Shown in pieces: positions 2,466 through 41,300 of a DNA stretch of 64,000 nt. Position numbers and translations under genes: made by a program. The stretch covers positions 37,392,401 to 37,456,400 of the forward strand of contig CM120641.1 in the NCBI GenBank assembly GCA_051362555.1. Reading direction: 5' to 3'. How positions within the stretch are numbered: the stretch's first letter is position 1; each line of letters opens with the position of its first letter. The DNA is from Lingula anatina (lineage: Eukaryota > Animalia > Brachiopoda). The notes beneath the pieces were generated by a model. The model was given only the letters and a program-made list of their open reading frames with translations. It did not search any database and was not told the DNA's origin.

Positions 2466-5400
2466 TTAATATTTGACATATTCGTCATCATCACTGCCAA
2501 ATCCACCTCTTCTGTCAAAACTGTCAGAATCGACTTCATCAAAAAAGTTATCATCATGCCTTCTCCCGCCTCTCTGTCTGCCATAACTGCGAGAATCTAC
2601 ATCATCATCATACCTGCTCCCGCCTCTCTGTCTGCCAAAACTGCGAGAATCGACATCATCATCATCATCATACTTTCTCCCGCCTCTCTGTCTGCCAAAA
2701 CTGCGAGAACCGCCTTGATCAAAATAGTCATCACCAGACCTTCTGAATCCTCCCTCTCTGTTGCCGCCATAGGGTCTGTTATATCCACCCCTGCTCTCTC
2801 CTCTGAAGGAATCCCCCAAGCCTCCACGACTTTGGCCCACACTTCTGTAGCTCCAGCTTCCAAACCTATTCCTTTTCCGTGAGCCTCCTGCAGGGATGAT
2901 TGGTGGGCCTCTGGAAAAACAAGGTATCTTTCAAGTAAACTTTACTTCACTTATTGAGCAACTCAGAATACTTTTATTCTGATCATTTTAAGAGGAAAAG
3001 GTGGGGGGGGGGGGACGACATTCAGATTGGTTGTCCTACTTAATGACCATTATTTTTTTTTTTTTTGTACAGAAGACCTGGGAGTAAATATTTTATCAAT
3101 GTGTAATAGCTGCATCCTCTACTACTTATGCTAGAAATCCACTTAAATATCTAGATTTCTATAAAACTGACCATACTCAACTACTACTATTTCTCAATTT
3201 AACCCAAGTTTTTGTTGTACAGTTTCCTATATAGTATTATATGTATGCATGAGTACCTGAGGACAGCTTCCGACCTTAGCTTCAAATCACTGTCAGTGAT
3301 TTCTGGACACTCTATTTGCCTAATATCAACTTGTTGCCTTATCTGGAATCAAGGAGAAAGAAAAAAAAGTAGGCAATGACCTATAGGCTGTTTCATACAA
3401 AATGTTTTTGAAAAGCCCATGTCAAAAAATAAAAAAACAATTCAATAATTTCAGGTATATGAGCCAATAACAACTTTATGCTTTCAATCAAAGATTTTTG
3501 TCAAATCTACAACAAAGGGGGAAAAATAAAACTATTTCAAAAACTACTTTTTGAACAAATTACATTTTTACTGAATTGAGCAAGTAAGTAATAAGATTTT
3601 CCTCACCTCTCTGATTACATTACTTAGACTATTACTAAGACCTTCTCCAGGATGGATCAATATAGAGTAGCCTTGTCGCCCAGCGCGTCCCGTTCTACCA
3701 GATCTATGAATGTAGTAGTCCAATCCATTTGTTGGGGGGTCAACTAAACAATAATGATACAAATATATAATTACTTTTTTATACAAAGATGCATTTAAGA
3801 TGTTACTTGATGAGCCTTACTACAATTTCACTTGAAAACATACAAATACACAGATATGAAATGCATGCGAAGCAAGAATTGAAAGTTCAAAACCAATATG
3901 CTGAAGTAGTGAAGAGATACTCTAGCAGTGGGCTTGTATTTTCAAAGCCTAGATGCAAAGATGCAATATCAGAAATCTAGGACCATATCTGAAGACAGTA
4001 TTTAAAGATCTAATTTTCTCTTACCCTGAATCACCAAGTCCACCTCTGGAACATCCAAGCCTCTAGCTGCAACATCTGTTGCCTGGAATTTTGGAGAAAG
4101 AATTTGAAGGCAAGTGTGAACATGTCATTGGTAAGCATATAAGTTTCAGTTTGTAGCAGCCACTTCTTTTACCACATTCTTTTACCATGAAAATAACAAA
4201 CTGATAGACCTCAAATTTATACATTATAGTAAACAGAATCCGATTTTAAAAAGCCATTTTTAGAGAGCCCATGCTATCAAATTCTAATATCTGTTCAAAA
4301 GTTTCACTTTTGCAAGAAAAGAATGTTTATAATTCTCTAATAATCTAATTTGAAGTCAATTTAAAAATTTAATATGGCGGGGGGGGGGGGGGGGGGGGGG
4401 TCCAGGGGGCGCTAGATGGCTTGCTTGCTAAACCCTTTTTTTCTGCAGTCAATAAAGAGGACAATGTCATGCTAAATTAAAGATCATTTAAAGTGAAAAG
4501 GAGCCTGATGACAAATTAAATATCTCCAAATATGCCTTTAACAAGTTTTGGCAGTTTGAAACTTTGAAAAAAATTTCAAGCCTGTCTACCTACCACTAAG
4601 CTTTTTATTTTTCCCATCCTGAAACCCTTTAAAATTTGTTCTCTTGAATTTTGACTCAGATTGGAGTTTATGGCTTTGGCAGAATGTCCACCTCTGGAGA
4701 GAGCCATGGCAACCTCTTTGGTCTGCACTGTAATAGTGAATTCCAGATGTTAACAATAAAATTTATTAATAATAAAAAATTTAAAAAACTCACAGCTTAA
4801 AGTTACATATAAAGCAAGTGTGGATTCCCAGTAAAAATATATTAACCACTTGTACTGGTTTCTTATATGGCTAAAATAAAGTCCACGTACCGAATCATAT
4901 ACCAAATTAGTCTCATGTTCTGCCAAAAATGATACAGCTTAGGGATATTTATAGCACAGAAAGAAAGCAGAAAACATCCATTCATATATCACTTTTCTGG
5001 AAATATGAAACTATGCCCATTGGTATTTCTCTAAATTATAATATCTGAAACTAGATGGTGGCATTTGGCCAGGTTTTGTGGCAAAATTTTGACAATAAAT
5101 ACATCTTTAACATTTCAATAATTTATCTAAAATGAATTGTGTTGGGGCTTTATCAGTAAGGTGAATTGCACAAAAAAAAAAAAAATAATAATAATAATCG
5201 CTCCTCAAAGCATTGTGAGCACTACAGTGTGCCAAATGAGAGCAAGTCCAGAGAACAAGAGAGTCAAAGTCATTTCCTAGTAAGGATTTATTCAACAAGT
5301 AATGAACACACTCCAAAATGAACTTGGAACACTGACAAATGTACTCTGACTGAGAGGACAAAATGTAAGCAAATGAAGCATGTGCAGTGCAGCATTTTAC

Positions 5401-11400: not shown

Positions 11401-12723
11401 GTTTGTCTGTCTTTTTGTTACCTCCACCAAGGAGGTTATGTTTTCATCCCTGTTTGTTTGTCTGTCTGTCTGTCTGTTTGTTTATCATCAACATAACTCA
11501 AAAAGTTATGGGCAGATTTTTATGAAATTTACAGGGTAGGTAAGAAACAGGTTACCTTAGAAGTGGTTAGTTTTTGGTGGTGAGCAAGATCAATGATCAA
11601 TCAATAATCAAAAATAACTCAAAAAGTTATGGGCCAATTGTGATGAAATTTTCAGGAACTGTCACAAGTGGGCCAAGGAACAGATTATAAGTTTTTGGTG
11701 GTGATCCAGATCAATAATCAATCAAAAAACTAATCATTATAGAATGAAAATTGGGTGGAGACTTTGCTGCCTTGGTGGAGTGCTTTTCTACTTAAATCTA
11801 ATGATTTTGAATTTAGATAGGCATGTTGGTTTACATAGTCCTCCATGGAGCTGATTTTCACAAGCGAACTATACATGATGGCTGCTTAAGGAAGACTAAA
11901 AGTTACTCAAGACCAACTTTACATTGTAATGAATCCTCAGCCAAAAATAAAGGAAATTTTTAAGCAAAGGCAGATTCTAGAAATGACCGATCCCTTTGTT
12001 AAGGATGATTGTTAAGTGATTCCTTTCAAGTAAGGTAAAGAAAGGTCTTGGAATACAAATTTCGTATAAGGTCGACTTTTAAGTCTCCCTTAACGCTAAA
12101 GGGAGATTCTGGATACGGGCCAATGTCTGCTTGTAAGACCAGACTTCACGAATGGAGATTTCATTGTTTCATTATATACATATATTTAACTGCATGGAAT
12201 TCTACCTGGGACTACAAAAGGTTGAAGGGTGAAACTGTCTCATGCAAGATATACTGATATTTGGTGAGGGGTCATTTGGACGTTGGTGGAGTAAGTGTTC
12301 TTGCTTCCGAAGCCCAATATAGATCATAAGTGTATGGCGACAATAAAAATCCCCCCTTTGTTCATACTTTTGCGCCACAATTAACTAGGGTCCAAAATAT
12401 AGTTGATGTGGTTTATAGAAAAATCAACTGGTTAAGGTGACAGGCGAGCAAAACTGGGTCCACTTACCACTTACATTGGCGAGACCTTTCACTAAAACAA
12501 ACGTGGGTCTTCATAGGCGCACGTGCTCATTTACTAACGGGGCGCACGCACATTTATACTACGGAGGTGACTGAATAATAAGGTATTTGATGCTCGGAAA
12601 CTTAAAAAACTTACTTGTATTTTGTTGTAAGAGACGCGGCACATGCCTCTGTGGCACAGTAACACATACTGACAAAAAACCACGAGCTTGACTTATGAAA
12701 CGTGCTCTCAGCGTGGCCGACAT
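2466..12723 (-). CDS. DEAD-box RNA helicase, DDX21/DDX50-like, with predicted mitochondrial presequence (15 coding exons)
   Basis: GT-AG exons with consistent phases: 12615-12723, 9929-10100, 9645-9764 (Q motif GYSAPFEIQ), 9113-9193 (motif I AATGSGKT), 8767-8859 (Ia PTRELC), 8330-8480 (YGG, ATPGRL), 7718-7783 (II DEGD), 7156-7253 (III SAT), 5898-5970, 5566-5662 (IV CIVF), 4594-4727, 4025-4082 ([20 protein letters not shown]), 3607-3743 ([13 protein letters not shown]), 3257-3342, 2466-2910 (RGG/acidic tail, stop). Confidence 0.93.
2525..2715 (-). repeat. Coding tandem repeat (~54-60 nt x3) in helicase C-tail, encoding SRS(F/Y)GRQRGG units with Asp-rich spacers
   Basis: cccgcctctctgtctgcca(a/t)aactgcgagaa occurs three times, separated by (cat)n-type runs. 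Confidence 0.9.
6049..7030. mobile_element. Dispersed non-autonomous repeat, copy 3, in a helicase intron
   Basis: Same blocks (gggtctcagc, agattgaccccaaaatcac, tttgaccttgaaatataggtcaaa, catgagtgccaca) as 1-600. Confidence 0.7.
10766..12121. mobile_element. Non-autonomous Harbinger/PIF element with Myb/SANT remnant, in helicase intron 1
   Basis: TIRs ggcccgtattccaaga / ttctggatacgggcc with AAT on both flanks (3-bp TSD); internal + strand remnant [23 protein letters not shown] (~11285-11353) resembles the Myb-like protein carried by Harbingers. Confidence 0.75.
11363..11792 (+). mobile_element. Helentron-associated (HINE/DINE-1-like) element nested in the Harbinger
   Basis: 5' tattac.tccgccaaggagg (duplicated at ~11415), (gtct/gttt)n microsatellite, repeated ataactcaaaaagttatggg, 3' ccttggtggag complementary to the 5' subterminal repeat. 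Confidence 0.75.
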
Positions 12724-13294: not shown

Positions 13295-15480
13295 ATTACC
13301 AAAGATAACCCATGAAGACATCAACATCCTCAAAAATCTGAAAGGGACCCCATTGGCCTATATTGCTTCAGTGGATGTTCCAAAAGTAGATACACCATTA
13401 GGAGAAGTGCAACTTGGCTCATATCTATCTTATCAGGTAAAAATCTGCGTGATATCACATTACATTTCGACAACAAGTTCTCATCAGCTTTTGGCCAAAA
13501 AGTGGCAAAATTGGGGTAAAAATCACTGTATACAATAAAAGCATTTTCACTTCTATTTATACACATTTTCATTTAAATAAGTACCATTAAAAGTTATTTC
13601 TACAATTATACTTTATTTTTTAATCATCACTCATCTTCATTTGAGCTTTTATCAGTGACAAAAGTATCTTGACATAAAGTTAAAAAGCAACATATTGTCC
13701 ATATCTTATTAACACTCTGAAATAAGTTAGTTGGTACACATGTATGACATTTGAAAGAATTTGGTAACTTTTAACTTTTGCAATTAGTTTTTCAATATGA
13801 ACCCTGTGTTTAGCTATTTTTTGAGTTTGGTATGTTTGTGCTGCTGTCATTTGGGCTCCACTAGATGAAAATGGAGGAATGTTCAGTCTGAGCCCTAATG
13901 TTTTTAATTCTTTTTTTTAATTGTAAATCCTTTGTCAGTCATGACAGAAGCCCTTCAGCAATATAACCTTGTTGCTTAAGTTTATTTAGAAGTTCATAAA
14001 ATCCACTCTGTTCAGTAATGCATTTATCAGATATAGACCCAGTAAATAGTTCTGAAATGAAAATAACCGATCCACTGGGATCACAGCCAATAAGACCCTT
14101 CAGCGTTGTATTGGACTTATAATCACTATACATCTGACTTTGTAAACCAAGAGCAGATGGAGTTTGTGTTTTGAACTCGGTTCCATCAATAATAACCAAA
14201 GTATTTTGAAAGTCAGCTTTAAACTCTTTTGGCATATTCTCAATAATGATATTTCTATGCGCCCATATTGACATTTGTCCAAACTTAAGATATATGTGGA
14301 CTATCCATGTATTAAAAACACTTCCAGCAGACTGAACAGATAAACCAAACTTAATGGCAATATCCTGTAAGCCAAAATTGTGACGTAACCGTGTCAACAC
14401 TGAAAATAAGCAGTCCTCTTGTGTCAAAAGTTTAATATCATTCTGACCTTTTCCATGCTGTAGTATATAGTTGTCTGGTATCAAAAATTTGAACAGACTT
14501 TTAAACAGCTCATGAGTAATTCCTGTGTAGTACTTAAAGAGTCCCTTTATCTTCTGTTCTTTGTCGAAAACGCTTTCTATTCCAAATTTCATTTGATCAA
14601 CAATTTTTTTCCTTTAGCTGTTTATTTTCATCTTTCATTAATTAATGATCATTGACTCCAACAGCTTGATTTTATTTTTTTAGTCTAATTCACCATGCAA
14701 TATGTGTAAATCTCTGGATATAGCTAACATGTCCATTGGAGAAACCCCTGCAATATAAAAAAATATATTTACAAATATACTAAATGTATATGCTGACATG
14801 AGTTCTCATTAAATTATACAGTTAGTTTTCAATTATGACTGGTTTATTTCAGACAAGAAACATGAAAAGGAAGGAGGATCCAGTCCACAGAATTGGTTGT
14901 GCTGACAACTCTGTTTTCAAACCATCGCCAGTGATTTTACCCCAGGAATAGGTTATTTTGAACAATGAATATAATAACACAGATTTTGTTAAGCTGGAAC
15001 TTACAACCAAAGAACAATCTTTGTCAAAAGATTGGTTTGAGGCACGCAAGACCTGACTAACTGCCTGACACAGAAATACCCATTTTCATGAGTGTGGGTT
15101 AGTTATTAACAAGGACTACGCATTCCTGGGGCCAATTCCAGATGGAAAGTTGTGTGACAATGGACAAACTGGAATTGTAGAAATTAAATGTCCTTTCGCA
15201 GCAGGAAACATGAAAATTTTGACAACATGTGAAGACATTGCCAATTTTTGTCTGGAAAACAATAATGGGGAAATAAGATTAAATACAATCCATGACTATT
15301 ACGCCCAAATTCAAGGACAGCTCATGATAACAGGATGCGACTTCTGTAAATTTTTTTTATTTACACAATGTGATATGCACATTTAGAGGATTATGCCAGA
15401 TCAAGCTAACATGACAGAACTTCTTCAAAAACTATCCAGATTTTTCGAAGACTTTGCAAAACCATTTTTGTCTAATACTT
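13295..15480 (+). pseudogene. YqaJ-like (lambda exonuclease family) gene remnant of the same transposon, exons 13295-13436 and 14853-~15480
   Basis: TKEQSLSKDWFEARK, ECGLVI..FLGPIPDG, VEIKCPF, YYAQIQGQLMITG motifs with stops and frameshifts; upstream exon ending GSYLSYQ|gtaaaa joins tttcag|ACA in phase 0. Confidence 0.82.
13650..14748 (-). pseudogene. ISL2EU/Harbinger-like DDE (DDE_Tnp_4-type) transposase remnant
   Basis: ORF 13939-14592 has an HTH-like region (LTRLRHNFGLQDIAIKFGLS), IIDGTE and YSDYKSNTTLKGLIG..GSISD; after two frameshifts it continues VMTDKGF..LNIPPF..IAKHRVHIE (third catalytic residue). Confidence 0.88.
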
Positions 15481-21302: not shown

Positions 21303-23434
21303 CTAGCCCGATCCTCCGGCGCCTTCCCCTGCATCAGCGTCATCATCATCATCATCATCATCGGACTTGCTGGCGAAGCAGGCGACAATCCCACTGCAGC
21401 AAGGACACATCTCAAGGAATGCATCCCGAAACTGTTGGTTCAGGCCAACATAGATGATAGGATTCATCACCGCGGCGCATTTAGCAAACATAGAGGGAAT
21501 GTGAACCAAGAGCAGTGGCATTGAGTAAGGGTCCCCAAAAGTTGCGATGCAGGAGACCAAAGCATAAGGGGTCCAGCATAACAGAAAATTACCTGAATAG
21601 GAAAACATTTCTTGAAACTGGAGCATTAATAGGCTTGAATTCAGAATAAAGTGTAATTTACATGTCCACACCACTCTTTGCTAATTTTTATAACCTAAAC
21701 AAAGTGGAATTTCACCATTTTACACTTTCGATGTGCACTACATTTTACACTTTCGGTATTGTTTTATTATACGTAAGATCTATCAACATTTTCATTCATT
21801 TTCTTGTTTAAAATAAAATAGCAACGTTGGGGTTTATCGATTTATGTAATTACGTTCTTTTAGTATAGGCCCTTAATTTTTCAATATCAAAATTGATTTT
21901 ATAAAACCTGAACATGTTAGAAATTAAGTACGGATCTTTGTAATTTTTTAACAATATTTTTTATAAATTAAGTTAAAGACTTGAATAAATGCACAAACAC
22001 CTCACAAGTTTGTGTATGAATAACATTAATGCACTTAGATTTGTCGTCCGTCACACTGAAACTAGACCGAAAAATTAAAAAATAGAGAGATGAAAAGAGA
22101 AGGCTCGGTCGGCACAACCAAAATTCAAATTTTATTTGGCATAAAATGGTTTTTATTGTTAGAAAACATGGAGTTAAATTTTTTTTTTTTTTTTTTTTTT
22201 TTGAAGTGTCTTAACGCACTTTCAACCCATTTTAATAAAATATATTCAGACAAAATAAAAAATTGAAAAAGACAGCCCACGTACCGAGCATAGCCACTGT
22301 CATGAGCGCCATCTTTCGTTCAAGTCTAGCGTTGCGTTTTGCTATGCTGCTCTGTTTGTCCCATGTTCCGCTTCTTGTTGATGAAAGAACCTGCAATATG
22401 CCAAAAATCGTGATACTGAAAAGTGCAAACTGAATGAACAATACAAAATGGAAGAATGACGGACTTCGTCAAACATAGACTTTTATACATACCTAGAAAG
22501 CTTAATTGATATAGAACAAGGAAAAGACAAGAATTTTTTGTGCAAATTCTAGAAATCGGGTAAAAATCGGCATCTTAATGTAACGAGAACTATAAACAAT
22601 GCAGCAATAACGGCACCACTCTTGAAAGACGCAAAAGATATATAGAGGACTGTGGTTACGTTTACATGACCTGATTAATGTTTTTACCCCAAGAACATGA
22701 TTGCCTTTTTGATAACGACTTTAAATTAGCTGCCGCGACGAAATAACTTTAAATCCTACCGTTAGGTAAATGTTAAGGTAGCAGAAGAGCATTATCCCAA
22801 CTGGAGTTAAGTAGCAGGCGATTAATATGGTTATAGCGAAAGATACGTCTTGTGGTCTTTTTGTTATCCAGTCGATTCCGCATGTAGTTCCTGCCCCTTC
22901 GTAGGTGTATTTGCTCCAGCCAAATAAGGGTGCCATTGCAAACATAAGACCACCAACATAGCAAGCGACTATTGCTATCAAAGCCTTTGTTTGCGTAATG
23001 GCCGGTGCCAGTAGTGGTTTAGCAATGACTATGTACCTGTCAATCGCAATTGCAGTGAGACAGTACATCTCGCTTAATCCTGCGAAATACATCATGAATC
23101 CATGAAGTACGCAGCCGACATCTCCAAACACCCACTTCAGCGCAAAACTTGAGATTCCTGACATGGGGCAACCGAAGACAGCTAGCATTAGATCAGAGAC
23201 GTTTAAGGACATAATAAACAGATTTGTAGTAGAGCGTAGATTTTTGAATTTTAAGAACATCAGCAAAATTGACGTGTTTCCGAAGATTCCCAAAATAGTA
23301 CCGAGTGTCATTGCTATGCCGCAGGCATAGTGTATCGCTGGTGATAAGTACCTGTCAATTACTATAACATCACTTCCATTACTGACTGGCAAGGACGTGG
23401 TCGCATTGGAGCCAACGGCAAAAGTCGTATCCAT
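21303..23434 (-). CDS. Opsin, most likely xenopsin (356 aa, 3 exons)
   Basis: Exons 22760-23434, 22285-22390, 21303-21592 join in frame. 7TM with GN, LNVSD, DRY, E181-equivalent (YEGAGTTC), CWTPY, retinal-binding Lys (FAKCAAVMNPIIY), NxQ motif NQQFR, CPCC. ICL3 WDKQSSIAKRNARLERKM and the intron positions fit xenopsins; the subclass needs a phylogeny. Confidence 0.92.
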
Positions 23435-25154
23435 TGCGTGTTTCTCTTTGACTTCACGGTTCTCTTTTTTGGCAGTGAATGGGCATTATGGCTTTATCAT
23501 GTAGTTTTTGTGATTCCTCCATAAGCATGGTCGCGTCATCCAAAAATTCCCAAGATTTTGACAGTAATCCCTAGATGCAATAAGGTTGAGAGGGAATACA
23601 GCAAGTAGCCATTTGTTCCAGTGAGCAATAACTTAATCATCCACATTTTTTTAAGCTTCAAATGATTTATTAAGTGACTACTTCTATGGAGATTACGTCT
23701 CAAATGAAAACAAAGAAGTGCCGACAAACAGGAAGGTTGAACTTTTTTGCTGAGTATAAGTTACTCGAACATCTCATAAAAGGCTTCTTCTTTTGTTTTT
23801 TTACTCGGTAATGCAACACAGTACAGTTATAGCATGGACATTGGTAGCATGAAGGAATGAATTGCCTTGTTTATTAATCACTGGTTCGATTTTGAGCACC
23901 GTTTTGAAATCGTTCGCAAAAGTGAGTTGATTTTTTGAGAACTTAAATCATAAAACAAAAAACTAAAATATAGAAAATATATTCCATAGCCGCGCCTTAA
24001 AGACACAGAGGGGCTAATTGTTTGCATAAGATAATCCATTAAACGGATTTTAACTACCTTTTTAATGTCTACCTCTAGGTATTCAACGCCTATTTCACCA
24101 TCGGCTTTCATTTTACTTAGAGTTTTCAGGACATTTATTTAAATATCGTTTATCCTGAAAGGAAGTCAGTGCCGTCTTCTGTCTTTACGAACCTTCGTAC
24201 TTATTTGTTTGATAGCGGATTGCGACGTTTTTACAGCTAACCATACAAATTCTTTTAAGCATTGTGTATTATGTCCGTGTTGATATCTTGTGTTTTCGCG
24301 AAAACATCCATACGAGTTTCTTGTTATGAAGTGATGTTCCTGCCAACAATATCGCACTGCATCAAACCCAAAACTTGGACGGTTTTCACAATTACATTTT
24401 TACCTCCACGTCATAGAAACATTATTTTTAAAAGATTTTAGACGTTCGTTTAAAAAACGTTTGCAGCTAACGCAACTCAATTTAATTCTCGCGACTTCCA
24501 CAAGACAATCAGATGGCATGAAACTGCCTTGGTACTTCAAAAAGGTACTTTATTCGAGAACGTTGTAGAAATGAGCTGTTGGTAGCAGGGTTGACACAAA
24601 CGGACAGAGTGAATAACTGAAGACAAAGTATATAGCCAAGTTCCTGGAATGCTACAGATGGCCATAACTAATATATAACATTGGGGAAACGCCATGTGTT
24701 AGCTGGGGAATTAATGCATGCCCTCGAGCGTAACTGACCGACAAATTCGAGTGCCTCGGCCCAACAGAGGTCTTAATTGCCCACGAGGGATGAATAGAAT
24801 TAATCAACGCATCTTTTGAAAAATCTTGATTCTAGCTAGGGGAAGTCCCTCGGTGGCTGAGTACATGTTAACGCAAGTTACAGCAATCCAGACGGTGATT
24901 TAGTGGTAAAGCAGTGGAATGAAAAGGAGGATACTCTCCGCCAAATCTTTTTATCAAGCACTATTTATTGAGAAGTAAAGTAGATCTGTCCAGTAAAAAG
25001 GATTTGAATAAAAAAACTAACGTTAAATCCGAAAGCTTTAGTTGTAGGCCTATTTACGTCAGACTAAACCTGTATAAGTACACCAGTAGCATTTTAATTT
25101 AAATATTGACATAAAAGTCACTATTGGTCATTTGCTATTCAATTTATTTATCTT

Positions 25155-29316: not shown

Positions 29317-32300
29317 CTATTCATGTGATCGGGGGAATATTGCGCAAATAGACACAACAATGGCAATAAGATACATATAGAAGAACAATCGGTCTAACAC
29401 CAACGCTATCACTCGCCATTCCTCGCACTTTTTTGTATTTGCGTCCTTTTCCGCTATTCTGTTCATAAAAGATCGCGCACACCTTCGAATGTCCCGGATC
29501 TCACTTTCCAGCGCAGTGATATTGACTGGCGATTTATCCGGCGGATTGCTCCAGTCTCCAGTATTGTTAGAGCTGGAATTATTTTGCATGCTTACGCCGC
29601 ACTCGCACATTTGATATTTGTTGTATTTTAGTTCTGGTACTTTGTTTTTCTTTTTCTCTTTGTTATTGATCAGTTTTACGCCCTCCATTTTGGGAGCGCC
29701 TCTCTGGTCGACATGGTACGTTTCGTCTGTCATGCACATAATTTTCGCAAATCCGTCCAGCATCACCTGAAACAGATTTAAGAGTCTTATTTGTTTGAGG
29801 CCTTGAAACTGAACAACAGTTTTAAAATGATTGTATCTAATGACACATACATACAATAGTAACATACATATATATATACACACACATACATACATACATA
29901 CACATACATACATACATACATACATACATAGTGTGAGTTCAAACAGACCTTCGAAATGCATTCAAAACATGCAATATATACACACATGAATAATTATCGT
30001 AACTTACGCACCAACATGCACAGGCAAAACGTACCCCTGTACAATTATCTCATAATCCAATTCTTAAAAGTGGGAACTGAAATATTTTGTGCTATTTGGT
30101 TTTAAATCAAATTCAGAAACATTTCATTTTCCAGTGCCCCCACAGACGATATGACCTTACCCGCTTCAGCCAGTTGGGCGCTTTTCGCCTCTTTGCACCT
30201 CTGAAGTAGAGGTTAATTACAATTGTGGACAGAAATGTGGATAAAGTGATGAGAATCATATTCAAGCAAAAATAGGCACCTGAAACAGAAATAACGATAT
30301 CATCAAAAGGTTTATCGTTAGTGATATTTTGATTTTGGTTAACAAAATACAAATAAAATTAAGAAGGTTCATCAAAATTTACCGTTTTTAAATTTAATTA
30401 TAAAATGACCTTTGCCAAATATTGGTATGAAACATTAGAGGTCACAATGATCGATATTCAACGTACCACTAAAAGGCTTGTGCTACTTTTTATGAAAGTC
30501 CGCAAATTAAATCGTGTCAGCGAATGTACCAGTAAAACGACCACGTTAAACATAAAACTATACCAATAAACCATTAAATCATCTCAAAATTAAATATAAA
30601 GTAAACAATTCTGATTTATCTCGCATAAAAAGCTAAAGTTACAAAACAAACTAATAATATTCATCACTACGCAATTTTGCAATGAAAACAGAAACAAAAT
30701 GGGTCCTAAGGCACCTTTTTGCACCTGATGTATCCGCAAAACGCATTCTGTGGCCTTTTCTGTTTAATTATGGACGCCAGGACGGCTACTTGTGTTCACC
30801 AAATACACACTGTGTTAATATATTATACGGACTACGTACACAAGACATGAGGATACAGCCACGGACACCAAAATATCCAACTTGAGAGATGAAAAAAGAG
30901 AGGTTGGTTATAGGAAATGGACTGCTGAGTTGTAAAGTGAGTGACCCCTAGGTCAGAAGTTTATTTTAGTTTATCTACGTTATATCTATAAGATGATTCG
31001 TGCTAAAAGGGTTTTAAATTGACATATTTTCTTATATATCAAAAACACAAAAAAGGCAAAAAACATGCGTAAATATAAATCGATACAATGATATGTAAAT
31101 ACGAGAAAAAGTTTTACCTTATAGTAATTTCAACATCTCTTTCTGTTCAGTGGCCTTTGTATTTTGAAAGCGTTTCACCATCAAACAATTCAAAGTAAGG
31201 TTAAAATAAACGTCTAAACAACATTAAAGAGACAACCAGATGTAATTCAGCGAATGGACAATTTAAGCTAGAGTTTATATACTTAGCATGGGCTTATTCG
31301 GTACTCTCCAAAAGGATCATCAGGTGCTCAAATTGTAATACGAATTAAATAGGCGTCCTGACGTCATATGTGCCCAAATTTCGTACCTATAAGTGGAATA
31401 GAGGAAGCGGCTGGGGGCGTGCTCTCCGCTAGTAGTAGCAACAAGACGAAAAATGCCACAAAAATATTCATTCCTGGAAAAGAGCAGTGGTTGGCATTGT
31501 TATAAAAACAATAATTATAAGGTGATGAAAATAGTGGACCCGGGCAGAAAACCGGCGGTACCATGTAAAGCAGTGGCTCTGAGGAAGGTTAAAGACGTAC
31601 AATCATTTGTGCAGTGCGCATGCAAATAACTATTTCAAATAATTGATTCCCATTTTGGATAGTGTGGAATTGCACATTAACCTTTGTATGGCGATCATGC
31701 TAGAGGACAATGTGTCAATATTTTTGACCATGTTCATAGTCAGTTACATGCTCGTTGGAGGGCGGTGATACAAGGACAAAAGCAGTCAAATGCATGCTCG
31801 TCGGATTGTATTTTGTGGTTGATTTGGTTTAAATGAAGGGTTCAAAAAATTTGAAGCGTGAATTTGGTTAAGTGCTTAAAATTTACTCTTATAAAAAAAT
31901 TCCCCCGACGAAGAATGCAGTTGACAAGAAGAATCGGGTGACAAGCTCTTCCATGGCGTCTGTAACGCTATGTTAGTTGACACGCTTACCTGACGCTATG
32001 CAGACCTACATTTGCTTAACCGTGTTGGAGGCGTCAGGCTTTGGCGTAGAGATTGCCATGGATGAGCTGTCGTGAACACAGGTTAACACATTCAATACAG
32101 GTACACCAAAAGCAATATCTGAGCGTGCCAGTCAACTGCCCTACCAACACCAGCAATATTACCTATCAATGGCACTTTGGCGGACGGTGGTGTTAGGTCC
32201 TTAAGAAGTAGTAAAAGCAGAAAGAACGCCACAAAGATATTCATGCCTGAAATGGACATAAGGAAAAACAAAAGGATATCAAATACAGCAGACAGCATCT

Positions 32301-35300
32301 ATACGCTTGGTTTTTGTTTTCATCAAGGTCGAAAGCTGGAATACCAATTGCAGCAACTATCATATCTGGAGAACAGACATAATACTACTTACTAATAGAA
32401 AGCAGTGGCGACAAGTTTCTCTCAATAATGTTTTTTTTTTCAAAGTCGGTGCGGCAAGAAGTTGATATTAGCAAGGTATTTTACATAATATACATTCAAT
32501 ATTGAAAACACACTCCCGTGAAGTGCAGTCTCGGCGAGATAGCAAAGTGCTTAATTCTTGGCATGTTGTCAACACTCACATCAATTTTTTTTTTTTTTTT
32601 GGCTTTTTTGCTTTTTTTGTACAAAATCTATCGGTGATTTACGTTGAAAAGCAGTGTACGAAATACTACAAAACACGAGTCATCATGACTAACTACAAAA
32701 TGCCCAATACTAAATAGATACTGAACGTTGCCAAACTTATACGTTAACGATCCATCCATAGATTTACACATGCGTATCAGTACAACCGATCATGCATTAA
32801 CAGGTACACAATTTCACATTGCCTTTTGGATGTGTACACGGTGTAAGAATACATGGATTGTGGTGAATCTCAGTCCACTGCTTCAATTAGGCAGTGCGCA
32901 TAAACATTCATTTAGAGAATAATTGACGAAAGGACGTTTCATTCGAAAAGTGCCCACCCCCTTGGCACGGGATGGTGGTTGTGCATGAACACTGCATCTT
33001 TAACATTTATGGGTGGTCTTTCGATGGAATTATGCGAACAAAAATTAAACAAAAGGGATGGGTATTTCTTTTGAAATAAACGTGGCTGCAAGGCCATTAT
33101 AAATATTTTGGGATGTAGTCGAAAAAAGTATATTATTAACAGTTCTTTGTATCTTAAACATATACTATTAAATTCAGATTTTATATTCAATCTATTGCAA
33201 TGTTTTAAAATAAGAAATCACTGTATACGGTTTGTTTAAAGTGCTTTATCTTATATGTTTCTTTATCTTACGGTAAACAAGGAGACAGGGACAACTTTGC
33301 ATGTGTTTACTTACCTAACTGCATTTTTGCTGGAGATTCAGGTGGCATCCAGAACAACGCTAAAGTCAAAGTCGATAACAAAACACAAGGTAGCACCAAA
33401 ATGTAATTATAAAATGCTACTTTTCTTCGAAATCTTATCGTAAACGTTAGATCGGGAAACGGCTCTGGGCAGCAAGGGTACGTTTTCACGTTCTTTTTAG
33501 CGGGGCTGTCCATCACCACCCACTCATTGGACTCGACGTAATCCTTCAGGTCGACCTTCTCCCCATCATAGAAAAACACATCCAGCTGGAAGCCATCATA
33601 TGTCCATGATCCAAACTTCATGTTGCACTCTTGGATATCGAAAGGGAAGTACGTAATGTCTATGTTACAGGAACTCTTAAAGATCGCCTGTGGAATCCAC
33701 ATGACTTGGCCGTCATTCGATACAACAGCCAAGGCCTCTCTTCGCTCCTTCAGACGAGTGTCGGCACTGAAAACGACAGATGTAATAATGATTGCTTTGA
33801 AAAGCACTGCGGTTATGAAAAGGATCCGTGTACGTATCAGTAAAAAGTCTTTGCTTTTCAAAAAATTAATTAACAATGCAGAGAGTAATACACTACCACT
33901 CATTATTGCATTATTATTATGATAACGTTTGTAAACGTTTTACTGGTCGTAACGTCCAAACATGCTACCGTTGTGGAAAAAGTTACCTTTTTTAACCAGA
34001 AAAACGTACAAACTTTTGACAACTTACTAGTTGTAAAGAACAATATCCGGCTTCCATATTTGGTCTGTGGGCACTCGGATCGTTTTGACATCACTGTAGT
34101 TCTTTGGATTCCATGCTAAAAGTTTGTCTTTCCACGCCTACAGAACATGAAATACAAAATGTAACGTGATTATGAGGGCAAGTACACTGCCTGGGATTAT
34201 TATTGTTAAGTTGCATCGGATTGTACCAGTCCCTTACAGTGCAGTGTAGAGATTGTGTTAGTTGCGAAAAGACGCATTCCTGTCTGTGCGCTAAATCTAA
34301 TTGTTCAGGTTCGGACAGTTGCAGAAGCATCTTAAATTTTGTTTATCAGTTGTGGATTAAAGGGGGGGGGGGGGTCAGGAAGGGTCTTTGTCCTGATCTT
34401 GTCCTGATCCTGATGAGAGGGTCTGAGAAAAAAATCACACTAACGTTCTCCTCCTGAAATTAGAATTTTGACCAGCTGATTTATAGTACTAAACCGTACC
34501 AAATGGCACCGTTCGCCCTCTAAAATACCAAAAATTTTCGGGGCCCTTCAGTGGGCCTCGAGCCCCACGCCAACCGGCGCCATCCGCGAACCCCACGCCA
34601 TCCGCGGCCCCCCTTCAAATAATCCTGTTTGTACATTCCAGGAAGATGAAGAGGCCAGTCAGGCTCTAAAAATCATTTTCAAGAAAGCTGTTGTAAATCA
34701 AGAAGAGGATCCAATGACCTCCAACTGAAGGCTGGCTTTCATACCAGTAGATTTTTGTTCTGACTGCATTGTCATAATAGTAAAGTTTAAACGTGTTTTT
34801 TTTATATGTACATTTTATGTATATTGTTTGGTAACGTTTCAATTTTTTACATAAAATTAAACAATATGGAAAAGTACATGATGATCACTACTGCTTAAAT
34901 AAATGTAAAGATATAAAAATCCAGTACTTTGCAAACTGCATTTTTATTTCTAAACGGATACAGCGATTGTCTATGTTTGAAACTATCTTAACATGATGGC
35001 ATCACATGAGGCTATCAGATCTAAGCTCCCTAAACCACACGCCGTATAACGGATCTGTTCGACTGCAATCAGTGGAATTCAGAATTAATTTGACGGTGAG
35101 ACAAATTTTTCAATATCCCAAGACGGATTTGCCATTTCCATATCATCAAATTAGAAAGTTTCGATGATCTTTAGAGATAAAGATATTTCAGCGAAGCAAG
35201 AGATACTCCCTAAATCAATAGACTATTAGACAAACATTCAAATTAAGGTTGATGGATTACAATCGATACAAGGAGAGCGAGCACAGACTTAGACCCTCAT

Positions 35301-38300: not shown

Positions 38301-41300
38301 TGTGTTAGATGTACCATGTTAAAACATTTATTATTTAAGTATATGTACGAATATCTAAACGAAAGAATATATCTATGTCCTTTGCTTACTGGTTTGTTTT
38401 TTTTATTGACATTGTCTGTTGTCCAATGAAATGTCTGTCTGCGATGGAAACTCTATTTATCCCGATGAAATTTTTTCAAGAGTCTTTTTTAACGTGCCCT
38501 TATTACTCTGTGATTGTCTTGAAAGTCACTGAACCTAATCAAGGTTGTGTTTGCTGATTAATCTTTGTTCCCTAGTTAATCAATAGGGGACTGTTCTCTT
38601 TCTCCTGGGAACCAGAAGTCGATTGTTTGAAAACACCCAGTATTCTTACAATGGGGTTTGTGACTAATGGACTGACTTCTAGACCCATATAAAGCAGCTA
38701 TCAGGGAACCATCTCACTTAAACTTGCCTACTTCCTGTTCGCTCTATATATCTGTACAGCCCTCGCGTTCTTTGGTGTTTGCCTTTTGTGAGTATGCAAA
38801 CGTATTGTATTGTATAGTATAGACCTCAAAGAACCCTAGGAGACTCCATGTTGGAACTTGCCCCCTTTTTTATCCTGTAAGTATTACATAATTTAAAAAC
38901 TAAATTCATTTGACTACATAGTTTTGACCACATCCTTCAATCATTTCCCTTTGAATAATTTACACTTCTACAGCATAGAGTATCATTTGCCTTTGATTTG
39001 AAAAGCTACGCTTTTAGATTGATGCGCGTGTAAATGCCTTAGGCAGGATTAATTTTGCTCGGTGCTATCTGGAACTCATTTTTCATGTTCTAAATGTCGT
39101 TAACAAATAATAAAATGTGACAAATCGCTATGGGTTCTTCTTTCACACACCCAACTGTCACTTTGGGATCAATGATTACCAGATACAACAAATATTGACT
39201 AATGTATCTCGTAAAGCAAATGGTTGTCAAATCGCAGGTCTCGTTACCATGACGTCCCTTACCAAAATCTATGATAAACAAGATATTTATTACTAAAATT
39301 GACTTGAATTCCCATTTCCCAGAATATTTCTATGAGCACCAGGTTCCAATTTCTGAATCTACTTAATGGATATGTGACAAGCTATCACTTTCAATGAGAA
39401 ACTATTTCTATATTAAGACTCTGCCACCCTTAACATCGCTCTTAGTTCAATGAAAAATATATAATTATTTTAAAAGATGGACGTGCTAATACGTCTGACC
39501 TGTTCGAGTCTGAATCGTCTTTGATTTTCATTTTTTTTTCTTTGGAGGGGTGGGATTGTATCGAAATATTAACTTAGATCTACGTAAGTGACCCAGCACA
39601 TTTTAAAATTTGAATTATGATTCATCCAGTTGTAATGTTCCCTCTGCGTCTCTGCTTAACATTTAGCAGATCTAAGTGTCCAGTATGAAAATTAATATTT
39701 TTGCCTTTTGATCCAGCATATTGTTATCAAACCTTGCTTCTTTACGTCCACTCCCCAAATCTGTTTAAGGTTGGTCAATGCAAAAGTCATGGCAAGTGGT
39801 ACAATTGTGATTACGAACTGAAAGAAAAGTGACTTACGTATCTGCTCCAGCAATTGGTCGTCAGAACTTGGTTCTTTTCGTCCAAATCTAAAATCTGTAT
39901 GAGGGCTATACCAAAGCTGACTCGAATGGTGTCGTTAAAGTTTTCGACCGGTCGACCGACCACACCAACATCGTTGTACTGTTTTAGTAGGTGGCTGATA
40001 AGGCGTTTTTCGTCCGAAACTGCTATACTTCCTGAAAGCAAAATGGCCGTGTAAACGTTAATTATATTCTTCATTAATGCATTATCTGGCATACACTTAA
40101 AAAGTTTGAGTTTAGGTAACGAAAACATTAGAGCAACCAAGAAATTTTACATACCTAACGCCTCTAAAAGAAAATTACCATCTTGAAGTGCTGTATTTTA
40201 TTTAATTAATTAATTAATAATGTTATAAGATTATACATAAACATGTCGCTACTTTTCTAAGTAAGTATTTATCAAAGTAGAATTTAATTTGAATGTTTTT
40301 CGCTTGGATAAAAACGTAAAAAGACAGCTGTCAATATGGCATGTTACAAACTATTCACCAATATTGGAACAAAAGCAAATTTCCAACAATTAAACCATTG
40401 AACCAAATGTGCATCCCTTAGATACATTAATAACTGGAAATGGTATGTTTAAGGTGTCTGGCATATGTCACTTGCGTCGCAGACAAATTAAAACAGACCC
40501 CGTGGAGTCAGACGTAAGTTTTAACTTACATTTTGTTATTTTAAAAAACGCCACCATTACACCTGGTTTCAGACACTATCGACCAGTTGCGATGTATGTC
40601 CATTGTATATATCTTAATCGTATACACACTGCAGGTGTAGGCAATGTGAGCAACCATCCAACCATATATCACGTACATTTCATTGTAAAAAAACAACAAA
40701 AATTAACTTATATATGTTTGCATGTACATAATACGAGGTACCGATGACTTTAGAAGCCATATGGAAGAGATGTATGGTGATCATTACACGTGGATGTCGC
40801 CTGCCACCTGTAAGAATATACCTGACCGCTCGCACACCTGAGCATATTTGGGCCTCTAAGCACCTGTGAATTCGGCTATGTACAAGACTGTATAATGCAT
40901 GCACAATATATTTATAATACGCCTAAAATTTCTGACCACCTGGTCATCCAAGGTTACATGCTGTTGTGTACGTAACAGAGAAAAATATGGTGGAGAAATT
41001 GGTAAAGAGTTATAAATCGCAATTCCTGGAATAGGTTTACTGCATGTACCGGGCTTCTGCACGCGTGAACATTCCCGATCACCAATGTAAAAATTGGAGG
41101 ATAAATATTTCCAGGTGTGAAAAAATAAACACTTACCACCTGAAAATACCTTGTTTTTACATTAAAAGATGGATAATCAATTAAAATATATTTACTTAAA
41201 AGGTCAGTCGGTGGGGGTTTTTTTTGGGTCCTAGGTCTTCCTACTTTATTTTAAGATTTTAAAAGGTTTCGTCCCAGATCAAGATTCGCATTTGAAAAGA

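What the first reader, a model, noticed from the sequence alone, without database searches (positions are those of the whole stretch)
31568..32890. Dscam-like docking site with two competing selector sequences controlling M2 exon choice
Seen: docking 32890-32869 (CUAAUUGAAGCAGUGGACUGAG), ~425 nt after the constitutive donor, pairs with selector A 32408-32392 (CCACUGCUUUCUAUUAG, 15 bp, ~145 nt before exon A) and selector B 31583-31568 (CUCAGAGCCACUGCUU, 14 bp, ~95 nt before exon B). Both use the AAGCAGUGG core but extend in opposite directions, so only one can pair at a time. Weaker core copies lie at 31483-31490 (exon B polypyrimidine tract), ~32650, and immediately beside the docking site (32891-32896, a local hairpin). 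Known: competing docking/selector pairing enforces mutual exclusion in the Dscam exon 6 cluster. Inference: the same logic operates here.
Basis: partly seen in the sequence, partly recalled or inferred. Interest (0 to 1): 0.78.

Follow-up and report, generated by a model that had tools for sequence, protein, structure and literature searches.

The report
RNA switch for receptor pore exons
A lamp-shell (Lingula) acetylcholine-receptor gene carries two alternative exons for its pore-lining helix, and one intron stretch can base-pair with a partner in front of either exon but not both at once, which likely helps the cell pick one exon, as in the fly Dscam gene.

Summary
The window is a Lingula anatina nicotinic receptor gene of the Pro-Ala (predicted chloride) type. 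It has two tandem M2 exons of 84 and 87 nt, each used alone in database gene models; one RNA run shows the junction into exon A. Frame-shift decay and a short intron cannot explain exclusivity. The docking site pairs with selector A (-20.1 kcal/mol) and selector B (-24.5) through one shared core, at the stated coordinates. A triple this good arose in 13 of 1348 shuffles, and in 1 of 1348 with selectors held near the acceptors; in real control stretches 7 and 1 of 128. Against it: equilibrium folding puts the docking site in a local hairpin (0.95); no helix skips exon B; conservation could not be tested; RNA depth was 13 reads. Duplicated M2 exons recur in octopus, oyster, scallop and annelid paralogues, and one unnamed homologue has srp-like crossing helices instead. 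Exon A adds a lysine at M2 19'. Verdict: probable new member of a known kind; odds about 0.5.

The parts
33315..33766 (-). Constitutive exon: end of the ligand-binding domain, M1 and the M1-M2 linker with Pro(-2')-Ala(-1')-Lys(0'); donor GTAAGT at 33314
   Evidence: 100% identical to the Lingula anatina protein P0001
32983..32997 (-).
   Evidence: predicted probability 0.016 or less
32891..32901 (-). Local hairpin arm that covers the docking core; the 11-mer is repeated at 31621-31611
   Evidence: p about 0.95; -8.1
32869..32890 (-). Candidate docking site
32648..32656 (-). Weak core copy (9 bp with the dock, -11.6; -16.7 extended)
32463..32476 (-). Upstream arm of a 14-bp helix with 32152-32139 that would loop out exon A; nests inside dock:selector B, crosses dock:selector A; strength not above chance
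   Evidence: 267 of 743 shuffles as good
32392..32408 (-). Selector A
32163..32246 (-). Exon A (84 nt; M2 4' to the M2-M3 loop; L13', K19', D20'); derived form
   Evidence: model X2; junction reads 33314/32245 in run X18
32139..32152 (-). Intronic arm behind the exon A donor; pairs with 32476-32463, or with the end of exon A (32196-32188), which would enclose the donor
31611..31625 (-). Copy of the hairpin-arm 11-mer upstream of selector B, containing UGCAUG
31566..31583 (-). Selector B; shares an 11-mer with selector A
   Evidence: no listed substitution in run X9, chance of that 0.5
31483..31490 (-). Core copy at the pyrimidine tract of exon B (8 bp with the dock, -12.7)
31387..31473 (-). 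Exon B (87 nt; V13', A19', E20'); ancestral form
   Evidence: models X1, X3, X4; identical peptide in 55 of 301 proteins held
30161..30279 (-). Downstream constitutive exon (M3)
29317..29766 (-). Last coding exon (cytoplasmic loop, M4, stop)

Best explanation
Two tandem pore-helix exons of a Lingula acetylcholine-receptor gene are each preceded by a short sequence complementary to one shared intronic docking site, and competition between these two pairings likely biases which exon is spliced in. Shown: the exons, their frames, the complementarity, the shared core, and splicing into exon A. Inferred steps: (1) the dock first folds into a 6-bp local hairpin, which a selector must displace (net about -5 kcal/mol for A and -10 for B after local opening costs, loop closure not counted); (2) dock:selector A, available first during transcription, loops out 461 nt and favours exon A; (3) dock:selector B, later but stronger, loops out 1286 nt including exon A, so exon B is used; (4) skipping of B after A is not explained by pairing and would need a protein repressor or splice-site strength, the same gap as in the Dscam exon 6 model. 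Likely origin: duplication of the M2 exon together with one arm of an older intronic stem. Likely outcome: both isoforms keep the anion-type Pro-Ala filter, and isoform A changes the outer pore mouth and the gating loop.
For: Exact geometry and energies. Best triple of the locus, 13 of 1348 shuffles, 1 of 1348 with the position limit. The introns ahead of A and B give only a gappy alignment, yet their two longest shared strings are 11-mers that both carry the core. Both exons are multiples of 3 and A+B or neither stays in frame, the intron between them is 689 nt, and all sites are GT-AG, so the three other mechanisms listed in PMC6071210 do not apply. The 4 Lingula protein models hold A only (1) or B only (3). 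The stronger distal selector fits the proximal-to-distal strength gradient described for Dscam (PMC8791459 passages). The states forced to A or B lie 5.1 and 3.6 kcal/mol above the minimum of a 2-kb fold. Homologue L022 has two M2 exons with two long crossing helices.
Against: The global ensemble gives the hairpin 0.95, dock:selector B 0.045 and dock:selector A 0.005; neither helix is in the minimum-energy fold. Real control stretches match the unrestricted score in 7-8 of 128. No compensatory change was seen: the one divergent haplotype is too close (about 4% intronic change) and its table stops at 32023, before selector A and the dock. No helix around exon B (best -12.7, matched by 709 of 743 shuffles). 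The elements are absent from L022. Exclusivity itself rests on predicted gene models: only 13 RNA reads were laid and no exon B junction was seen. Oyster, scallop and octopus paralogues have models with both or neither exon, so such clusters can be leaky. One shared 11-mer between introns of this size is not rare by itself (my estimate about 0.3 expected).
Confidence: 0.5

Rival explanations
1. Exon choice is set by splicing proteins and splice-site strength; the repeated CACUGCUU-type words are protein binding sites (YGCY, Muscleblind-like; GCAUG, Rbfox-like; both motif assignments recalled), and the complementarity to the dock is a by-product.
For: YGCY 15 against 6.2 expected and GCAUG 4 against 0.6 in the intron between the exons; GCAUG 6 against 1.6 over both introns, P 0.006. 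Two GCAUG lie in a 22-nt tandem repeat inside a 147-nt block with no listed substitution in X9 (P 0.002, chosen after the fact), a stronger constraint signal than any seen at selector B. The dock is predicted closed.
Against: Protein motifs do not call for a 15-16 bp complement upstream, nor for extensions that fit each selector separately. It can act together with pairing.
Confidence: 0.25
2. The pairings are chance matches in about 1.8 kb of intron and have no role.
For: 7-8 of 128 real control stretches reach the unrestricted score; the scan read many loci; equilibrium probabilities are low; the 6-mer excess would not survive correction over all 6-mers.
Against: 1 of 128 and 1-2 of 1348 once selector position is required. 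The arrangement is the one expected beforehand for duplicated exons that lack another exclusion mechanism.
Confidence: 0.15
3. Pairing matters, but as one-way silencing: exon A is repressed by default (dock:selector B plus the helices over its donor) and included only when these are opened; dock:selector A plays little part.
For: B is the stronger and more accessible partner. The exon A donor lies in a predicted hairpin (-19.5) and a 14-bp helix brackets the exon. B is ancestral and in 3 of 4 models.
Against: Selector A has its own 5-bp extension. The bracketing helix is no stronger than shuffles (267 of 743). The only junction seen is into exon A.
Confidence: 0.1

Closest known systems
Dscam1 exon 6 cluster: upstream docking site and selector sequences (described in PMC6071210 and PMC8791459; Graveley 2005 itself not held)
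   Same: One dock in the intron after the constitutive exon, a complementary selector before each duplicated exon, one shared pairing surface; downstream skipping not explained by the pairing.
   Different: 2 exons, not 48; duplexes of 15-16 bp; dock covered by a predicted local hairpin; brachiopod ion-channel gene; no conservation or mutation evidence yet; no sequence relation tested or implied.
srp exon 4 bidirectional pairing (PMC4691838; summary in PMC6071210)
   Same: Two-exon cluster under long-range pairing. The homologue L022 has the srp layout: two crossing helices, each around one exon.
   Different: In Lingula no helix around exon B was found, so the window is not of this type.
Insect nAChR alpha6 exons 8a/8b/8c (PMC8505678 table; PMC1919356)
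   Same: Mutually exclusive exons for TM2 and the TM2-TM3 loop of a nicotinic subunit, with one highly conserved form.
   Different: Lingula subunit is of the Pro-Ala type and has two exons; 'docking' does not occur in PMC1919356. That alpha6 is cation-type and an independent duplication is recalled or inferred, not tested.
Lymnaea-type and schistosome acetylcholine-gated chloride channels (PMC4055736)
   Same: Pro-Ala in the M1-M2 linker; exon B differs from the Biomphalaria 'type B' subunit P0033 at 1 of 28 residues.
   Different: No alternative M2 exon among the listed members of the gastropod type-B-like clusters examined; ion selectivity of the Lingula protein is unmeasured.

Membership tests
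Upstream docking site / selector control (Dscam exon 6 type) | Tandem homologous exons | tested here: met
   55 of 87 aligned nt identical, same phase and position
Upstream docking site / selector control (Dscam exon 6 type) | Exactly one exon per mRNA | tested here: inconclusive
   4 of 4 models carry one exon; only 13 RNA reads and one junction type
Upstream docking site / selector control (Dscam exon 6 type) | One upstream site complementary to a selector before each exon | tested here: met
Upstream docking site / selector control (Dscam exon 6 type) | Pairings exclude each other | tested here: met
   both use dock positions 32884-32875
Upstream docking site / selector control (Dscam exon 6 type) | Elements conserved, with compensatory changes | tested here: inconclusive
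   Selector B unchanged in X9 but P 0.5; dock and selector A rows not shown; no other brachiopod DNA obtained
Upstream docking site / selector control (Dscam exon 6 type) | Helices form in the pre-mRNA | tested here: inconclusive
   Computed only: low at equilibrium, net favourable after local opening
Upstream docking site / selector control (Dscam exon 6 type) | Disruptive mutations shift exon use and compensatory ones rescue | not testable with these tools
   needs a minigene
Upstream docking site / selector control (Dscam exon 6 type) | Frame-shift decay, short intron and mixed spliceosome excluded | tested here: met
   (minor-spliceosome donor consensus recalled)
Bidirectional pairing (srp type) | A helix around each alternative exon | tested here: not met
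   Lingula: best stem around exon B -12.7, 709 of 743 shuffles as good. Met at sequence level in L022.
Acetylcholine-gated chloride-type nAChR alpha subunit | Pro-Ala in place of Glu in the M1-M2 linker; vicinal cysteines | tested here: met
   PESPAK and YPCC in the constitutive exon; alignment to alpha4; criterion from PMC4055736
Acetylcholine-gated chloride-type nAChR alpha subunit | Chloride current on acetylcholine | not testable with these tools
   needs electrophysiology

The most novel reading that the evidence does not exclude
Lophotrochozoan chloride-type nicotinic receptors have duplicated their pore-helix exon several times independently, and different lineages recruited different competing RNA structures to choose between the copies: a hairpin-gated Dscam-type dock in Lingula and srp-type crossing helices in the L022 animal. 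In Lingula the switch puts a glycine-receptor-like positive charge at M2 19', so RNA folding would tune inhibitory cholinergic conductance and gating.
Probability: 0.25. Interest if true: 0.68.

Novelty: new member of a known kind. Interest (0 to 1): 0.47.

Why it matters
The docking/selector mechanism is established mainly in arthropod genes. A two-exon case in a brachiopod ion channel would be a small, easily mutated model of the open question in the Dscam model: how the downstream exon is skipped. Repeated M2-exon duplications in one receptor family give a natural test of the idea that exon duplication itself creates competing structures (PMC6071210). The isoforms differ at 13', 19', 20' and in the M2-M3 loop; in glycine receptors the charge at 19' sets conductance and rectification (PMC2233819, abstract). 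My searches found no paper on these exons or structures, but the mechanism is known and the isoforms already sit in public gene models.

Tried and rejected
No whole genome is held for this window. RNA: no RNA holder listed; four raw-read runs gave 2, 0, 9 and 2 reads, too few for ratios; absence of exon B junctions is no evidence. DNA contigs: X7 and X11 laid only 37-53 nt pieces; the 37-nt match at 31484-31520 to another contig in X1, X7 and X9 is AT-rich with 5 mismatches and was treated as chance. Metagenome scan (80 of 432 confirmed loci kept): none above 69% identity, so no Lingula-close locus; 13 loci with an intron-flanked M2 exon were analysed, 1 of them with two copies. A downstream dock for Lingula was sought and not found. 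An E0:31625 plus dock:selector B cooperative stem was rejected because the helices cross and E0:31625 costs 9.9 kcal/mol in the global fold. Rfam: only two microsatellite-driven miRNA matches below threshold, outside the elements. The careful tree did not finish; only the quick tree was read and no one-clade test was run. No second protein with the exon A peptide among 301 held. Our earlier findings: nothing. Three papers were not held. Structure prediction, complex prediction and the representative-protein search were not run; they would not bear on the RNA claim.
Full report
What the locus is. The minus strand holds a nicotinic acetylcholine receptor gene (Pfam Neur_chan_LBD and Neur_chan_memb). 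The exon 33766-33315 is 100% identical to a Lingula anatina protein that NCBI names 'alpha-5 isoform X2'. Its cluster has 4 proteins: X2 carries exon A; X1, X3 and X4 carry exon B; none carries both or neither. These are predicted models and I could not see their read support. The M1-M2 linker reads PESPAK, the Pro-Ala motif that marks anion-selective nicotinic subunits (PMC4055736 passages). It lies in the constitutive exon, so exon choice does not change the selectivity filter.

The two exons. Exon A is 32246-32163 (84 nt) and exon B 31473-31387 (87 nt); A-only, B-only, A+B and neither all stay in frame to the normal stop. The intron between them is 689 nt and all donors are GT. So decay of frame-shifted forms, steric crowding and mixed spliceosomes, the alternatives listed in PMC6071210, do not enforce exclusivity. 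Exon B is the ancestral form: its peptide is identical in 55 of the 301 proteins held, and the exon A peptide occurs only in P0001. They differ at 13' (L/V), 19' (K/A), 20' (D/E), 21' (L/S) and in the M2-M3 loop (prime numbering counted from Lys 0', consistent with the alpha4 alignment). Lys at 19' occurs in 3 of 258 M2 segments seen. In glycine receptors the 19' arginine ring sets conductance and rectification (PMC2233819, abstract); a like effect here is inferred. RNA: 13 reads from 4 runs; one joint, 33314 to 32245, in 3 reads with 2 starts in X18, which is the splice into exon A; a few reads also cover the intron behind exon A.

The observation. All coordinates, lengths and distances are right. 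Duplex A is -20.1 and duplex B -24.5 kcal/mol; both use dock positions 32884-32875. I scored the best site in intron 1 that pairs, through overlapping bases, with one partner in intron 1 and one in intron 2. Shuffles (n = 1348) matched it 21 times on perfect stems, 13 on extended duplexes and 4 on both; with selectors within 200 nt of an acceptor, 2, 1 and 0. Real stretches of the window with the same geometry (n = 128): 8, 7 and 3; then 1, 1 and 1. The 200-nt limit was set after seeing the data. The upstream introns of A and B give only a gappy alignment, but their two longest shared strings are 11-mers: the selector core (32409/31577) and the hairpin-arm word (32901/31621).

Evidence against. 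In a partition function over 33330-31300 the dock core is in the local 6-bp hairpin with probability about 0.95, with selector B 0.045 and selector A 0.005; forcing A or B costs 5.1 and 3.6 kcal/mol. Such 2-kb equilibrium folds are rough and ignore co-transcriptional order (general knowledge). With local opening costs the net energies stay favourable: A -20.1+8.7+6.1 = -5.3 and B -24.5+9.7+4.4 = -10.4, loop closure not counted. No helix brackets exon B (best -12.7, matched by 709 of 743 shuffles) and the 14-bp helix around exon A is ordinary (267 of 743). As for Dscam exon 6, downstream skipping needs something else (PMC6071210).

Conservation. Run X9 is a divergent haplotype with 106 other letters in two pieces; the table showed 40 of 107 rows and ended at 32023, so dock and selector A are unread; 12 of 15 indel rows were shown, none in the three elements. 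Selector B has none of the 38 listed substitutions (of 41 in that piece), which at 4.2% has a chance of 0.5. The test is inconclusive. Longer unchanged blocks are 31722-31868 (one 1-nt indel) and 31342-31535; the first holds a 22-nt tandem repeat with GCAUG, which supports the protein-factor rival.

Relatives. Alternative or tandem M2 exons appear in Octopus (P0191/P0192, P0199/P0200), Crassostrea virginica (P0102/P0103), Ostrea (P0110/P0209), scallops (P0096/P0236 and others) and Dimorphilus (both in model P0012). Models with both exons (P0208, P0210, P0229) or neither (P0109, P0068, P0073, P0195, P0197) exist there. In a quick tree of 44 ligand-domain-to-M1 stretches these genes fall in four places: Lingula in an unresolved base, an octopus clade (99), a bivalve clade (95) and a weak group with Dimorphilus and L022 (85). 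This suggests but does not show independent duplications. Of 13 metagenome loci analysed with an intron-flanked M2 exon, L022 has two copies. It lacks the Lingula words but has a perfect 16-bp helix around exon 1 (-21.7; 19 of 1703 shuffles) and a 21-bp helix around exon 2 (-34.0; 0 of 1703) that cross each other, the layout described for srp. In the 12 single-exon loci the best exon-spanning stems (up to 1000 nt each side) were -9.0 to -19.5. However, stems of -26 to -96 occur within single introns of four of them, and L077 also has microsatellite stems of about -43 across its exon, so inverted repeats alone can reach such strengths.

Mechanism. I commit to competing pairing that biases exon choice (0.5): the hairpin closes the dock; the early, weaker selector A or the late, stronger selector B opens it; B pairing loops out exon A; skipping of B after A needs an unknown repressor. 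Rivals: protein motifs (0.25), chance (0.15), one-way silencing of A (0.1). It works like Dscam exon 6; membership is not established, because conservation and mutation tests are open, but no defining feature failed.

Literature. Nine searches listed no paper on these exons or structures; (nicotinic receptor + mutually exclusive + docking site + selector sequence) returned 0. The lophotrochozoan nAChR survey PMC6896357 has no occurrence of 'splicing', 'isoform' or 'Lingula' (term search). Seen: PMC6071210 first fifth of the text and passages; PMC4691838, PMC8791459, PMC1919356, PMC4055736, PMC8505678 and PMC8373072 passages; PMC2233819 abstract. Not held: Graveley 2005, van Nierop 2005, and the 2017 MRP paper; that the last reports competing pairings in an annelid and in amphioxus is recalled, and it would mean this is not the first case outside arthropods. 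No supplements were read; genome-wide exon lists in supplements or subscription papers may include this gene.

Verdict. Real feature, above chance, probable new member of a known kind of splicing control; function unproven. Interest 0.47.

Noticed in passing
L022 11306-11321/11705-11720 and 11622-11642/12102-12122: Homologous receptor gene with two tandem M2 exons (11466-11552, 11909-11995) and two crossing long helices, each looping out one exon (srp-like layout).
   Followed up: partly
proteins P0012, P0096/P0236, P0102/P0103, P0110/P0209, P0191/P0192: Duplicated M2 exons in several paralogous Pro-Ala nicotinic subunits of an annelid, scallops, oysters and octopus; some models include both or neither exon.
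   Followed up: partly
window 31738-31759 and 31784-31805: 22-nt tandem repeat, each copy with GCAUG, in a 147-nt block with no listed substitution in X9; either copy can pair with 31925-31903 (-25.5, -22.6).
   Followed up: partly
window 31984-31992 (minus): Consensus-like cryptic donor CAG/GUAAGC (GT at 31989) in the intron between the exons, covered by a predicted hairpin 32039-32031:31996-31988; a few X18 reads cover this intron.
   Followed up: no
window 31365-31354 with 30784-30773 (minus): Strongest perfect long-range stem of the region (12 bp, -21.4; -27.1 extended), inside the intron after exon B, starting 21 nt behind its donor; a second stem 31327-31318:30730-30721 crosses it.
   Followed up: no
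window 39814-40146 (minus) and proteins P0121-P0123: The gene models also have three different N-termini (alternative first exons or promoters) ahead of the shared ligand-binding exon.
   Followed up: no
window 21306-23485 (minus): Rhodopsin-family GPCR gene (7tm_1, E 5.8e-39) downstream of the receptor gene; opsin-like by appearance, not tested.
   Followed up: no
window 13942-14613 (minus) and 15069-15383 (plus): Open frames that look like a DDE-transposase-type fragment and a YqaJ-like nuclease fragment (labels recalled, not searched); probably mobile-element remains.
   Followed up: no
window 2469-2930 (minus): Gly/Arg/Asp-rich low-complexity open frame with RGG-like repeats.
   Followed up: no
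proteins P0289 and P0297: Two other subunits (a monogenean flatworm and an unnamed record) also have Lys-Asp at 19'-20', as in Lingula exon A.
   Followed up: no
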